This document shows, piece by piece, positions 7,419-51,060 of a DNA stretch of 64,000 nt. Origin of the DNA: Octopus vulgaris. Its lineage: Eukaryota. The stretch covers positions 95,294,001 through 95,358,000 of the forward strand of contig OX597814.1 of assembly GCA_951406725.2 (NCBI GenBank). Direction: 5' to 3'. Each line of letters starts with the position of its first letter. The first letter of the stretch is position 1. The translations under genes were made by a program, and so were the position numbers. The notes beneath the pieces are model-generated. The model searched no databases. It was not told the DNA's origin and saw nothing but the letters and a program-made list of their open reading frames with translations.

Positions 7419-7706
7419 AAACAATTGCAGCGTGGAAGGTGTTTATAAGCCATTTAAGAAACACACAAAAGCCGTTCGATTCACTCCAACATTTAAGTTT
7501 AATTTGTCAAAATATTTTCGTCGCTAAAATCCGCGACCTGTTCACTGACAAAGTCCGTGCTGCATCTCGGACTTTGTGAGTGAACAGGTCGCGGATTTTA
7601 GCGACGAAAATATTTTGACAAATTAAACTTAAATGTTGGAGTGAATCGAACGGCTTTTGTGTGTTTCTTAAATGGCTTATAAACACCTTCCACGCTGCAA
7701 TTGTTT
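7419..7706. repeat. Near-perfect fold-back (139-bp arms, 10-nt spacer) containing a hammerhead-like fold; PLE-type terminus
   Basis: Arms 7419-7557 and 7568-7706 are reverse complements with one mismatch seen; bounded by (TA)n at about 7348-7362 and 7706-7740. Confidence 0.9.
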
Positions 7707-7832
7707 ATATATATATATATATATATATATATATATATATGTATATGTAGGTCCCGGGTTGATTCGGGGTTAACCACAGTAAGTAAGGTACTCAATACAT
7801 AGCAGAGTAAAATTAATTTATTATATAGAAGG

Positions 7833-7883
7833 AGCTTCTACAGGACTAGTACTGTTTCATTCAAGAGAAATCTTCAGGAAGCT
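7833..7883 (-). ncRNA. Type I hammerhead ribozyme (inverted copy of 7980-8030)
   Basis: Exact reverse complement of the plus-strand HHR, inside 79-bp inverted arms 7815-7893 / 7970-8048. Confidence 0.8.
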
Positions 7884-7979
7884 ATTTAACAAGCTACTGC
7901 CTACCCCCAAAAAAGTCCCCCACCACCACTCCTTTAAACCTGCCTAAATGTATAAATGCTAATACAATTCTTGTTAAAT

Positions 7980-8030
7980 AGCTTCCTGAAGATTTCTCTT
8001 GAATGAAACAGTACTAGTCCTGTAGAAGCT
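7980..8030 (+). ncRNA. Type I hammerhead ribozyme
   Basis: AGCTTC-CTGAAGA-t TTC tctt GAA t-GAAA-CAG tactagtc CTG-TA-GAAGCT: 6-bp stem I, canonical core, GUA triplet (predicted cut after 8024), AATAAA at 8041-8046. Confidence 0.82.
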
Positions 8031-10054
8031 CCTTCTATATAATAAATTTAAAAAAATATATATATATATATATATATATATATATATATATATGTATATA
8101 TGTATATGTATATATATATATATATCTGTATATTCATACATACTATATTTGAGAATGGGTTACAAAGATAACAAAATGCAAAGCAGTAGCAGCAGCACAC
8201 GCCCCTATCTTACCCTACTCTATCCTATAGCCATCAATGGGTTTAATCCTGGAGACCTTATTATTTTGTTTGCTCATCTATTTTATTATTCCTTAACTAT
8301 TTTTGTTTTGTTTCATTTTATTTCCATTAGATACATACATATATATATATATATTTATATATATATATATATATGTTTCATTTTATTTCCATTAGATACA
8401 TACATACATATATATATATATATATATATATATTATTATTATTATTATTACTACCATTGCTACCTACTACCTCCTCCTCATCTTCATCATTGCCATCTTT
8501 ATTGTCTTTTATATGTATAATCTTTGCTAACCCCATTTTGTTTATGTTGAGTACTACCCTCACAGACATGCATACACAACCACATAAGCACATTCCTTTA
8601 CACACACACACACACACACACACACACACACACACACACATACACACACACACACACCATGCCCAAAAGAGTGGCATTGCTGACATTTAAAAAGCAGAAA
8701 CCAAAAACATTGACACACGTACAAACACACTACCATCACAAAAATCCTTATCCTGCATACACACACACATACACGCGCACACACACACACAAACACACAC
8801 ACACACACACACACACACACACACACACACAAATACACACACATACACACACACAACCTGGCAAAATGCAAAATAATGATGAAACATCGACAAAACTACA
8901 GCAACAACAAAAAGACCCAAAACACCCCTGTAAAAAAAAAAAAAACCAAAAAGAAAAGAAAACAACAAAACAAAACCCCCATGTTGAATATGATAAAATT
9001 GTTAAATAAAAACTGAAGCAACAAGTAAGGAAGGAAGACAAATAGACAAACTGTTGCCATTATACATGTCTTTCTTTGGTGTACTGTTTGAAAGTATTAC
9101 CATTTTTTTAATACTGACAACTACAATAAGAATTCAGGATAATGTCATTTTGTTGTTGTTGTTGTTGGGGGTAACAAAGCTAGTAATGGTTCTTGTGTTC
9201 AGCCTCAGATCAGCAACTCTGAGCAAGCAGTCCTATGTTCAAATGCGTTTCTGTTTGGACCATCCCAGCTACTTTTGTTTAGTTCTTTTTTTTTTTTTTG
9301 TATTCTTTTTGGTTTTATGGCATGACATGATTGAGATTTGGTTGATATTTCTAGCATGTCGGATAACCATATAAAAGCATCTTTGGGCTTAGCCCCTGTT
9401 TTGTTGACTCCTGTGAGCTCCCTCCTTTGTTTCAAAGTAGTGGTGGTGATGGGAAGTGCATAGGTAGAGAGAGAAAGCAGAGGATGGGGGGGGGGGGGGG
9501 ACATTGACATTCATTCAGGTTGCTATGGTAATGAAAATAATTTAAAATAAACCCCCCAAAAAATAGAAGAAAATAATGTCTAAGAGTTAGCTAAAACAAA
9601 TAGCTAAGTGAACATACACCTCCAGGCGTAAACCATTCCTACCCACTAATTTCCATATATATCAATATAGATGCCAGCATGGCAATGAGGTTGAGTTAAA
9701 ACGTTCACTTCCCAACCATGTGGTTCCAGGTTCAGGTCCCACTGTGTGACACCTCAAGCAGGTGTCCTCTACTATAGCCCAGGGGCCAACGTCATGTGAA
9801 TAGATTTTGTAGATGTAAACTGAAAGAAGACTGGCATGTGTGAGCATGTGTTTATGTATGTGTGTGTATATATATATGTGTATGTGTATATATATATATA
9901 TATATCATCATCATCATCATCATCGTTTAACGTCCGTTTTCCGCGCTATATATAATATATATATATATGTATGTATGTATACACACACACATATATATAT
10001 AACATAAGGTCATATGTGAGAGGTGAAGAGATGTATTTTTCCATGACTTCTATA

Positions 10055-49587: not shown

Positions 49588-49670
49588 AGACTACACATGT
49601 TTCGTGGCTATATTTTCCAACTTATAACAGTAAAATCAATTCAATTTAAATATAGTCACTCATCAGGTCT
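49588..49670 (-). ncRNA. Type I hammerhead ribozyme, long stem II
   Basis: Minus strand: AGAC-CTGATGA-GTGACTATATTT...AAATATAGCCAC-GAAA-CATGTG-TA-GTCT; canonical core, 11 of 12 stem II pairs, ACATGT palindrome, GUA triplet. Confidence 0.85.
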
Positions 49671-50377
49671 TTAATTGTTTTTATTTGTTTTTTCCTTGCC
49701 ATAGCTTATATTCAGATGCAGCTCGAAGATAATAATTACAGTAAAGAAAGAAATATATAATCGACAGCTCCACTGGTTTTTCTCAACAAAATTATTATTA
49801 TTATCATTATTATTATTATTATTATTATATATATATATATATATATATATATATAAAATCATCAGTATTATCATTAATATTCAGAAATAATCAGAATACA
49901 TAAAAAATGAGAGAAATAGGAAGAAATGAAAGTATAATTTAAGTAAAGAACAACTTATATTAGCCTAATAAAATAGAGGTACTGCAAATGCAGTAAAATA
50001 AAATACTGTACTGTAGTTTGAAAAGCAACAATCCATTTTAGTTACAGTAGAAAATTTCTTTTAATGACAAATTAATTAACACAAATGTTTTTGACTCTAA
50101 TTAACATTTTTTTTTTTCATTTTTTCTGGATGCTGGCTGCTTAAGAATTCCAATTATGAGCAGGGGTAAAAAATTCCATTTTTTTGTGAATATGTACCTT
50201 TGTAATGTAATTATTTCTATTGTCTTTAATTGTTTTTATTTGTTTTTTCTTTGCCATAGTTTATATTCAAATGCAGCTCGAAGATAATGATTAAAGTAAA
50301 GAAAGAAATATATAAACAACAGCTCCACTGTTTTTCTCAACAAAATATTCTCTACAATGACACATGGTTTCTATATT

Positions 50378-50783
50378 CTTTTCTACTCTAGGCACAAAGT
50401 TCTAAATTTTTTTTTGGGGGGGGGTGAGAACCAGTCAATTAGATTGACCAGTATGTAACTGGTACTTAATTTATCGACCTCAAAAGGATGAAAGGCAAAT
50501 TTGACCTTGGCAGAATTTGAACACAAAACATAGACAGACGAAATACCTATTTCTTTACTACCTACAAGGGGCTAAACACAGAAGGGACAAACAAGGACAG
50601 ACAAATGGATTAAGTCAATTATATCAACCCCAGTGCATAACTGGTACTTATTTAATCGACCCTGAAAAGATGAAAGCCAAAATCGACCTCGGTGGAATTT
50701 GAACTCAGAACGTAGCAGCAGACAAAATACCACTAAGCATTTCGCCTGGCATGCTAACGTCTCTGTTAGCTCACCGCCTTCAT
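50378..50783 (-). mobile_element. Dimeric SINE family A copy
   Basis: Two core units with different tails enclosed by one 14-bp TSD, ATGGTTTCTATATT (50364-50377, 50784-50797). Confidence 0.8.
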
Positions 50784-50985
50784 ATGGTTTCTATATTGCA
50801 GTCAATAAAAGTTTGAACATATTCATACACATATACAAATGTTTTCACATATGCAAACATATATATGATATATATATATATATATATACATACATACACA
50901 CATATAATTATTACTAATAATAACAAGTATGGAGACTTGTACATCCACAAAATTTATTTTATAGTTATATACAGTATATCATAAT

Positions 50986-51060
50986 GACCTACACATGTTT
51001 CTGCTATTCACTATTGTAAACGCAACTTTGCAATACAGTCAGTGCAGCTTCAACAGGATC
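50986..51060 (-). ncRNA. Degenerate hammerhead ribozyme
   Basis: Minus strand: GATC-CTGTTGA-a GCTG...TAGC a-GAAA-CATGTG-TA-GGTC; one core substitution. Confidence 0.55.

What the first reader, a model, noticed from the sequence alone, without database searches (positions are those of the whole stretch)
7503..51060. About 11 hammerhead-ribozyme loci from largely unrelated non-coding elements in one 64-kb window
Seen: type I HHR folds (stem I, CUGANGA or variant, stem II, GAAA, short stem III, UH, stem I) at 7503-7622, 7833-8030, 10055-10174, 11383-11435, 19915-19973, 20788-20825, 36147-36238, 38160-38205, 41773-41807, 49588-49670 and 50986-51060. Their stems differ in sequence yet keep pairing, the host inserts are about 150-550 bp and non-coding, and most sit in or beside (TA)n. 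Established: minimal type I HHRs mark PLE pseudo-LTRs and retrozymes. Inference: a very abundant, multi-family population of ribozyme-bearing non-autonomous retroelements, roughly one per 6 kb here. No PLE RT or GIY-YIG ORF is present in the window.
Basis: partly seen in the sequence, partly recalled or inferred. Interest (0 to 1): 0.9.

Follow-up and report, generated by a model that had tools for sequence, protein, structure and literature searches.

The report
Hammerhead-tipped Penelope retroelement ends
Eleven unrelated short inserts in this animal DNA each carry a predicted self-cutting hammerhead RNA fold, and six were traced to longer, enzyme-coding Penelope-like jumping genes, whose clipped ends they are; two families are unusual, one with a swapped catalytic base pair in thousands of copies and one that likely makes its own short SINE-like copies from a built-in tRNA-like promoter.

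Summary
All 11 loci carry type I hammerhead folds, and a structure scan finds 7 strong hits against 0.10 in shuffles. The loci are mutually unrelated, and 10 of 11 lie within 200 bp of (TA)n.

They are mostly not dedicated non-autonomous elements or retrozymes. Genome-wide searches show the hallmarks of Penelope-like elements (PLEs): fixed 3' ends, an optional tail, variable 5' truncation and inverted mates. Six of the eight families searched connect to an RT/GIY-YIG ORF elsewhere in the genome (Hydra-, Nematis-, Poseidon- and Neptune-like; four firmly, two weakly). No such ORF lies in the window. The window is 3-5 times denser than 400 kb of arbitrarily chosen genome, which still implies roughly 50,000-80,000 motifs.

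PLE hammerheads are known, in octopus too. Two features were not found in print in my searches:
(1) A young family has a compensatory G3-C8 core (8,494 exact pattern matches; 94 of the 100 listed are G3-C8, none C3-G8).
(2) A Poseidon-like PLE has a tRNA-like A/B-box module in its 3' UTR, where 26 of 42 pieces begin, suggesting a PLE-born Pol III SINE.

Cleavage and transcription are untested.

The parts
7360..7562 (-). h1 sense copy: 3' end of a Nematis-like PLE, with its tail (about 7360-7418)
   Evidence: 97-99% identical copies; ORF-linked copy at L169+L403
7503..7552 (-). h1 hammerhead with G3-C8 core (GUGAACA), palindromic stem III region, predicted cut after U17
7563..7706 (+). h1 inverted mate without tail; second hammerhead at 7573-7622 with one stem I mismatch
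   Evidence: 144-nt arms, 98% complementary
7750..7975 (-). h2 sense copy with tail (about 7750-7815): 3' end of a young Hydra-clade PLE; hammerhead 7833-7883
   Evidence: 99-100% identical copies; masters L253-L258
7970..8048 (+). h2 inverted mate without tail; hammerhead 7980-8030
10054..10175 (-). h3 decayed hammerhead (core CAGAUGA, AAAA); family not traced
   Evidence: no relative in about 2 Mb of fetched loci; no genome search run
11019..11065 (-). inverted 3' piece of the h4 element (87% match to 11544-11590)
11383..11435 (+). h4 hammerhead (core CAGAUGA, hairpin stem III); element runs to (TA)n at about 11618
   Evidence: no genome search run
19915..19973 (+). h5 hammerhead in an old family (many copies have CCGAUGA); element about 19750-20055; no ORF found
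20681..20867 (-). h6 5'-truncated 3' end of a second Hydra-clade PLE; hammerhead 20788-20825 (CCGAUGA core, CUC-A-GAG stem III)
35920..36275 (+). h7 5'-truncated copy with inverted 5' piece and no tail; hammerhead 36147-36238
38112..38373 (-). h8 copy: tRNA-like A/B-box head (38289-38373), (AAT/AAC)n, minimal hammerhead 38160-38205, 3' end
38360..38625 (+). h8 inverted mate: head 38360-38444, (AAT)n, hammerhead clipped after GAAA (about 38567-38604)
41673..41883 (-). h9 short unit of about 210 bp with a preferred 5' start; minimal hammerhead 41773-41807 (family core CCGACGA)
49449..49670 (-). h10 3' end truncated at stem I, no tail; hammerhead 49588-49670; no ORF found
50986..51060 (-). h11 decayed hammerhead (core CUGUUGA); a 75%-identical inverted pair lies in L264
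   Evidence: no genome search run

Best explanation
The loci are the 3' ends of at least eight families of Penelope-like retrotransposons, six of them linked to an RT/GIY-YIG gene elsewhere in the genome, and each was likely left by target-primed reverse transcription that began just downstream of the element's hammerhead and stopped early. Shown: fixed 3' ends, an optional tail of about 55-80 nt, staggered 5' ends, inverted mates and ORF-linked masters. Inferred: the endonuclease cuts in (TA)n, cDNA starts at one of two sites 3' of the ribozyme, and because the ribozyme lies only about 30-200 nt from the 3' end, almost every insertion deposits one. Copies keep both sides of the cut site, so the template's 3' ribozyme was uncleaved (or re-ligated) when copied. 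The fold is maintained by selection in the master lineages, not in the dead copies; it would cleave as a dimer in tandem transcripts. The window's solitary or opposite-strand copies are probably inert in cis. Two families also make short progeny from internal starts: h8, likely by Pol III from a tRNA-like A/B-box module in the master's 3' UTR, and h9, likely from a promoter in the terminal repeat.
For: (h10 fixed 3' end, optional tail, inverted pieces). (h2: L255 hammerhead + tail + 722-aa ORF; L253, L254, L258 have the ORF followed by the hammerhead about 3.3 kb downstream). (h6: L369 hammerhead-tail-ORF start; L360 endonuclease end 1.25 kb upstream). (h1: ORF with GIY-YIG, about 980-nt UTR, G3-C8 hammerhead, tail). 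(h8: L385 RT + EN, stop, A/B-box module, hammerhead; L384 and L106 also reach the ORF side). (h7: inverted h7 tail abuts an EN fragment 3.3 kb upstream on the same strand). (h9 relative with a 22-aa RT motif, E 7e-6). (collinear upstream sequence beyond 60 nt in 25/32 h10, 29/32 h7, 31/44 h6, 27/32 h5 copies, but only 8/51 h9). (positions 3 and 8 left free: 27 of 29 clusters form a Watson-Crick pair, C-G 22, U-A 4, G-C 1; reversed control 1 hit against 290). (6,136 GIY-YIG candidates, many intact 781-aa ORFs). Literature: PMC4209133, PMC8557442, PMC11167929.
Against: No ORF was found for h5 and h10 in the stretches held. h3, h4 and h11 were never searched genome-wide. The h7 link rests on one locus with nested inserts, and the h9 link on 22 residues in a 75%-identical subfamily. 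Within-family covariation for h5 is not significant (89% paired, 2 compensated pairs, 173/500 shuffles reach it). Rfam displays no hammerhead match. The tRNA origin of the h8 head is not confirmed by ARAGORN or Rfam, and a small hairpin at the head's start could cause the 5' peak by stalling the RT. No cleavage or expression data.
Confidence: 0.87

Rival explanations
1. The loci are mainly dedicated non-autonomous ribozyme elements (non-LTR retrozymes or mini-PLEs) that circulate as small, possibly circular RNAs and borrow PLE enzymes.
For: h9 has a near-fixed 5' start in 43 of 51 copies; h8 pieces start at the tRNA-like module in 26 of 42 cases; the 2026 preprint 10.64898/2026.07.22.740005 derives retrozymes from PLE terminal repeats; h3, h4, h5, h10 and h11 have no ORF traced.
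Against: No tandem hammerhead units in the window; six families connect to ORFs; staggered 5' ends in h5, h6, h7 and h10.
Confidence: 0.1
2. The cluster is a host-selected array, for example ribozymes that cut a long intron or lncRNA, which would explain the local excess.
For: The window is 3-5 times denser than the genome sample (7 per 64 kb vs 8-12 per 400 kb; binomial p 0.002-0.02), and the 20-kb flanks have none.
Against: The window was picked for its density among tens of thousands. Hammerheads lie on both strands, several are decayed, and two families are 99-100% identical to dispersed copies, so they are recent. (TA)n density is only modestly raised (12.7 vs 9.5 tracts per 10 kb).
Confidence: 0.03
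3. The motifs are chance folds in AT-rich, repeat-rich DNA.
For: Folding z-scores are mostly unremarkable; no Rfam match is displayed; five loci score below my threshold or were not listed.
Against: 7 vs 0.10 expected; multi-copy families with the fold at the position known for PLEs; Watson-Crick 3-8 pair in 27 of 29 clusters.
Confidence: 0.01

Closest known systems
Minimal type I hammerheads in PLE pseudo-LTRs (Cervera and de la Pena 2014, PMC4209133)
   Same: Short stem I, long stem II with an extra base before it, palindromic 1-3 bp stem III, many unrelated families per genome, mostly solitary truncated copies, opposite-strand pairs 100-700 bp apart, U3-A8 variant (seen here in Neptune-like masters L091-L093).
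   Different: A G3-C8 core fixed in a family with thousands of copies (that paper reports U3-A8). My estimate of about 56,000-84,000 motifs (wide interval, different descriptor) exceeds the 4,000-9,000 it gives for coelacanth and Xenopus.
Hydra-clade PLEs, including Hydra-1_Obim of Octopus bimaculoides (Craig et al. 2021, PMC8557442)
   Same: h2 and h6 masters have RWR/RWK and DKT; h2 also has the CxCX5C linker and CxxC/CxH motifs; both have a canonical hammerhead and (TA)n insertion. The h6 stem I/III layout is like Hydra-2_aMil in their File S2.
   Different: The h2 element is about 5.5 kb with a 3.3-kb microsatellite-rich 3' UTR (described Hydra elements are under 3 kb) and is very young (99-100% identity); the hammerhead sequences differ from Hydra-1_Obim.
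Nematis-, Neptune- and Penelope/Poseidon-clade PLEs
   Same: The h1 ORF has a CX3CxxC linker, a CCHH GIY-YIG and resembles the Nematis EN rows in Fig. S2 of PMC8557442; the h8 ORF lacks the linker, and h8 is the one locus away from (TA)n; the h9 remnant matches a Neptune-like RT motif.
   Different: Clade calls rest on motifs, not on a tree. h1 has the G3-C8 core; h8 carries a tRNA-like module in its 3' UTR.
Schistosome hammerhead SINE-like repeats (Sm-alpha/Sj-alpha; as reviewed in PMC6765202)
   Same: Pol III-type promoter followed by a hammerhead in a short repeat.
   Different: Those are often tandem and need an upstream copy. h8 copies are dispersed or inverted, start at the promoter module, and share their 3' end with an identified PLE master that itself carries the module.
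Non-LTR retrozymes (PMC7229834; preprint 10.64898/2026.07.22.740005)
   Same: Type I hammerhead, non-coding, PLE-derived ends.
   Different: Defined as tandem repeats with a hammerhead in each unit; none in this window.

Membership tests
Type I (minimal) hammerhead ribozyme | Core C3UGANG8A / GAAA / UH with three helices closed by stem I | tested here: met
   Canonical in h2, h5, h7, h8, h10; family-fixed variants in h1 (G3-C8) and h6, h9 (C4); single-copy decay in h3, h4, h11
Type I (minimal) hammerhead ribozyme | Watson-Crick pair between positions 3 and 8 | tested here: met
   27 of 29 clusters with both positions left free; h1 94 of 100 listed G3-C8
Type I (minimal) hammerhead ribozyme | Palindromic short stem III allowing a dimer | tested here: met
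   Read directly in h1, h3, h5, h7, h8 and in the h9 and h10 families; hairpin stem III in h2, h4, h6
Type I (minimal) hammerhead ribozyme | Stem covariation among genomic copies | tested here: inconclusive
   h5, 20 copies: 89% paired, 2 compensated pairs, not above shuffles; stems differ wholly between families
Type I (minimal) hammerhead ribozyme | Rfam hammerhead model match | tested here: not met
   None among 150 of 186 matches displayed
Type I (minimal) hammerhead ribozyme | Site-specific self-cleavage | not testable with these tools
   No assay; no raw RNA reads available
EN+ Penelope-like elements | RT plus C-terminal GIY-YIG ORF in the same element | tested here: met
   h1, h2 (49, 52, 59), h6 (66), h8 (98, 121); weaker h7 (63), h9 (116); not found for h5, h10; h3, h4, h11 not searched. 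Pfam does not recognise the h2 ORF; it aligns to the Neptune-like ORF at E 3e-6
EN+ Penelope-like elements | Hammerhead within the terminal repeat that precedes and follows the ORF | tested here: met
   L255, L258, L254; L369
EN+ Penelope-like elements | 5' truncation, inverted 5' copy, tail at one end only | tested here: met
EN+ Penelope-like elements | Retained spliceosomal intron | not tested
   Not looked for; one search showed no canonical splice joint in contigs over L255:1200-3900
Hydra clade (h2, h6) | RWK and DKT motifs, CxCX5C linker, CxxC and CxH around E/N, (TA)n target | tested here: met
   L255 protein and L369/L360 frames (the h6 linker was not covered) against section 11 of PMC8557442; h2 has RWR
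Hydra clade (h2, h6) | Length under 3 kb | tested here: not met
   h2 about 5.5 kb; described as 'generally' short
Nematis (h1) / Penelope-Poseidon (h8) clades | Placement in an RT phylogeny | not tested
   Motif resemblance only
Non-LTR retrozyme | Tandem units each with a hammerhead | tested here: not met
   No such array in the window; pairs are inverted
Non-LTR retrozyme | Abundant circular RNA | not testable with these tools
   Only contigs available
tRNA-derived SINE (h8) | Internal A and B boxes at tRNA spacing | tested here: met
   A-box and B-box matches about 45 nt apart, read (box consensus recalled); 2,234 exact pattern matches, control 0
tRNA-derived SINE (h8) | Detectable tRNA homology | tested here: inconclusive
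   ARAGORN 0 genes in 9 sources; no Rfam tRNA match; the cloverleaf is degenerate
tRNA-derived SINE (h8) | Copies start at the Pol III +1 and share the 3' end of an autonomous partner | tested here: met
   26 of 42 pieces start within -7..+10; 39 of 41 heads are followed by the hammerhead body; master L385
tRNA-derived SINE (h8) | Pol III transcription | not testable with these tools
   No data

The most novel reading that the evidence does not exclude
This genome holds one of the largest known hammerhead populations (about 10^5 motifs), and within it two new forms. One is a natural, actively amplifying G3-C8 core-swapped hammerhead that standard CUGANGA descriptors miss, so PLE families scored as 'ribozyme-less' may have one. 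The other is a SINE born inside a Penelope-like element: a captured tRNA-like Pol III promoter in the 3' UTR launches short hammerhead RNAs that the parent's RT/GIY-YIG protein copies.
Probability: 0.5. Interest if true: 0.68.

Novelty: new variant of a known kind. Interest (0 to 1): 0.5.

Why it matters
The role of the PLE hammerhead is open: cleavage is weak in vitro and dispensable for insertion in the one reconstituted system (PMC11167929). This genome offers dozens of families with unrelated stems, three 3-8 pair types and young intact masters (Hydra- and Neptune-like), which makes it a natural mutagenesis set for asking what the fold is selected for. A compensatory G3-C8 swap fixed in a family of over 8,000 copies argues that the tertiary 3-8 pair, hence the catalytic conformation, is under selection, and shows that descriptor-based censuses undercount. 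h8 would extend the SINE-LINE partnership to PLEs and show one route by which such a SINE arises. The basic finding, many PLE hammerheads in an invertebrate genome, is known.

Tried and rejected
Rfam scan of the window: the displayed matches were almost all microsatellite/miRNA hits, with no hammerhead. First strict scanner found only 2 canonical hits because stem II mismatches were disallowed; replaced. The repeat finder was swamped by microsatellites.

The intact 781-aa Neptune-like family was tested as partner: its terminal repeat carries a U3-A8 hammerhead unrelated to any window locus. An apparent h2 link to GIY-YIG in L087/L110 was a neighbouring insertion. A 775-aa ORF near h2 in L217 is a nested LINE. 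I first took the h2 ORF for Nematis and the h1 ORF for Naiad; motif checks changed these to Hydra and Nematis-like.

A first pair count on A1 was off register and is superseded. Upstream-sharing by blast was inflated by microsatellites and was redone with filtered k-mers. Walks upstream of h5 and h10 found no linked ORF. Longer stretches around the ORF-linked h6 and h8 loci could not be obtained, so their full-length masters are not seen whole.

Expression: no RNA holder listed. Contigs of four runs guessed to be RNA cover 27-29 of 30 bins of the h2 master, with loose ends into (TA)n at the two 3' termini (about 1555-1560 and 1628), but contigs show no cut site, strand or level.

ARAGORN and Rfam find no tRNA in the h8 head. 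PDB search with the h2 ORF: 0 hits. Protein search with the h1 endonuclease, longer proteins only: 1 unnamed hit.

Paper searches for a natural G3-C8 core, a PLE-dependent tRNA SINE, octopus hammerheads and the known octopus SINEs found no such report. Lunse et al. 2017 (PMC5785218) was not held, and Ohshima and Okada 1994 was seen only as a reference entry; either could already describe these variants.
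Full report
Context. The window is G000:C1:95294001-95358000 in a 2.8-Gb, microsatellite-rich animal genome. I read it as octopod-like from repeat content; that is inference.

1. Observation. Each locus shows stem I, a CUGANGA-type core, stem II, GAAA, a short stem III and UH. A scanner scoring stems and core gave 7 hits >=14 at 6 loci, against 0.10 in 138 local dinucleotide shuffles and 0 in the reversed window. h3, h6 and h9 scored 4-8; h4 and h11 were not listed and rest on inspection. 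The 11 loci are pairwise unrelated by blastn, and 10 of 11 lie within 200 bp of (TA)>=5 against a 29% background. Rfam displayed no hammerhead among 150 of 186 matches, and 9 of 11 folding z-scores are unremarkable. No PLE ORF is in the window.

Density. Forty arbitrarily chosen 10-kb stretches gave 8 hits >=14 (reversed 0), or 12 (reversed 1) when C4 and any Watson-Crick 3-8 pair are accepted. The window has 7 either way and its 20-kb flanks 0. The window is thus 3-5 times denser than average. The genome estimate is about 56,000-84,000 strong motifs (95% range about 24,000-147,000).

2. What the inserts are. I searched the genome with 8 of the 11 loci; h3, h4 and h11 were not searched. First-look candidates (not copy numbers): h10 1,792, h9 2,743, h2 1,209, h1 1,510, h7 1,184, h5 770, h6 945, h8 2,380. 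Copies end at a fixed 3' site, often with an optional tail of about 55-80 nt, and many have an inverted mate lacking the tail. Collinear upstream sequence beyond 60 nt is found in 25/32 h10, 29/32 h7, 31/44 h6 and 27/32 h5 copies, with staggered ends, but in only 8/51 h9 copies. The genome has 6,136 GIY-YIG candidates and 25,732 candidates for the h2-type endonuclease.

Links to ORFs. h2: L255 has hammerhead, tail and a 722-aa ORF; L253, L254 and L258 have the ORF followed about 3.3 kb later by the same hammerhead. The protein has RWR, DKT, YRDD, CxCX5C, CxxC and CxH, the Hydra-clade marks of PMC8557442. Many young copies share one frameshift. h6: L369 reads hammerhead, tail, ORF start (RWK, DKT); L360 has the endonuclease end 1.25 kb upstream of the hammerhead. 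h7: in L336 an inverted h7 tail abuts an endonuclease fragment 3.3 kb upstream on the hammerhead strand, with nested inserts between; one locus only. h1: in the adjacent stretches L169 and L403 a 5'-truncated ORF (RT thumb, CX3CxxC linker, GIY-YIG; Pfam E 1e-5) is followed by a UTR of about 980 nt, the h1 hammerhead and the tail, with a shorter inverted copy beside it. It resembles the Nematis rows of Fig. S2. h8: L385 is a frameshifted Poseidon-like RT+EN; L384 and L106 also reach the ORF side. h9: a 75%-identical copy in L050 has a 22-residue RT motif upstream (E 7e-6 against the Neptune-like ORF). No ORF was found for h5 or h10.

Core covariation. With positions 3 and 8 left free, about 2 Mb of fetched loci (enriched for PLEs, partly overlapping) gave 290 hits (reversed 1) in 29 clusters. 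27 clusters have a Watson-Crick 3-8 pair: C-G 22, U-A 4, G-C 1. The G-C cluster is h1. An exact pattern with both positions free matches 8,494 times (control 1); of the 100 listed, 94 are G3-C8 and none C3-G8. The rest of the h1 core is canonical, with the extra base and G10.1-C11.1 pair described in PMC4209133. Within one old family (h5, the 20 copies in which the fold could be located) covariation is not above shuffles, as expected for neutrally decaying copies.

h8. About 40 nt after the stop codon of L385 lies a module with A- and B-box matches about 45 nt apart (consensus recalled), then (AAT)n, the hammerhead and the 3' end. The head pattern matches 2,234 times (control 0). 39 of 41 heads are followed by the hammerhead body, and 38 of 59 bodies are preceded by a head. 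After removing self and duplicate rows, 26 of 42 pieces begin within -7..+10 of the inferred +1, 9 further inside, 3 at -8..-20, and 4 reach further towards the ORF. ARAGORN and Rfam see no tRNA, and a small hairpin at the start could also explain the peak. h9 starts at a TCATT-like site in 43 of 51 copies; two diverged copies extend further.

3. Mechanism. Shown: the anatomy above. From the literature: PLE protein nicks the target and starts cDNA at internal sites that define the tail; unprocessed RNA is the main template; the G3/C8 double mutant partly restores cleavage (PMC11167929, passages). Inferred: since the hammerhead lies about 30-200 nt from the 3' end, nearly every insertion leaves one. 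Linker-bearing clades favour (TA)n, and the linker-less h8 is the one locus away from (TA)n. All copies span the cut site, so the template was uncut there. Selection on the fold acts in the masters, probably for dimer cleavage of tandem transcripts (PMC4209133). Solitary and opposite-strand copies cannot form that dimer in cis and are probably inert. Confidence 0.87. Rivals: mainly dedicated non-autonomous elements or retrozymes 0.10 (true in part for h8 and h9), host-selected cluster 0.03, chance 0.01.

4. Known systems. Hammerheads in PLE terminal repeats and their mass occurrence as truncated single copies are described (PMC4209133: parts 1-2 of 4 read). Hydra PLEs with hammerheads, including one from Octopus bimaculoides, are in PMC8557442 (passages, part 2 of 10, section 11, supplement parts 1-2 of 59 and searched passages). 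Retrozymes are tandem by definition (preprint 10.64898/2026.07.22.740005: parts 1 and 3 of 5, supplements not seen; PMC7229834: passages); none is present here. Pol III hammerhead repeats are known in schistosomes (PMC6765202: passages). Natural U3-A8 covariation is reported (PMC3088659: passages); G3-C8 appeared only as a laboratory mutant (PMC11167929, PMC3884650: passages). Penelope expansions in octopus are noted in PMC8967140 (passages). PMC10886601 was seen only for two reference entries.

5. Novelty. New variant of a known kind. Not found in print in searches (natural G3-C8; PLE-dependent tRNA SINE; octopus). The library lacks most subscription papers, Lunse et al. 2017 was not held, and Repbase was not checked, so either feature may be described.

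6. Verdict. Observation confirmed; interpretation partly supported; interest 0.5. Most novel reading: probability 0.5, interest 0.68.

Noticed in passing
window 6123-7361 (-): 412-aa open frame of a 5'-truncated LINE (RVT_1 E 3e-19, PHD-like finger), RTE-like by recall, followed by 63-bp repeats; h1 sits at its 5' junction.
   Followed up: partly
window 57363-57794 (+): Mariner-like transposase remnant (HTH_48 E 0.007, below cut-off).
   Followed up: partly
window 60600-60947 (-): 115-aa frame resembling a CR1-type RT start by recall; no Pfam match.
   Followed up: no
window 3470-3806, 5747-5866, 32249-32380: 62-63-bp tandem repeats of one family, associated with the LINE 3' end.
   Followed up: no
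window 11130-11357: Small element with terminal inverted repeats between the h4 hammerhead and its inverted 3' piece.
   Followed up: no
window 49667-49790 and 50222-50344: 124-bp direct repeat (93.5%) just upstream of h10, overlapping its stem I by four bases, suggesting microhomology at the 5' junction.
   Followed up: no
   Followed up: no
L091-L094, L102, L103: Young Neptune-like family with intact 781-aa RT+GIY-YIG ORF, an upstream ORF of 330-390 aa, CCAAT-rich repeats in the 3' UTR, and a U3-A8 hammerhead in 99%-identical terminal repeats.
   Followed up: partly
L259-L264 and many hits: A large h2 subfamily shares one frameshift in the ORF yet is widely dispersed, suggesting mobilisation in trans.
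   Followed up: no
L216:2713-2803 and 3295-3385 (-): Two identical hammerheads in direct repeat 582 bp apart, the nearest thing seen to a retrozyme-like dimer.
   Followed up: no
L102, L169, L253, L254, L334, L363: Ends of different PLE families are stacked in the same (TA)n tracts, as h1 and h2 are in the window; nesting may explain local hammerhead clusters.
   Followed up: partly
h5, h6, h9 families: C at core position 4 is fixed or common; the canonical-looking core of the window's h5 copy may be CpG decay from it.
   Followed up: partly
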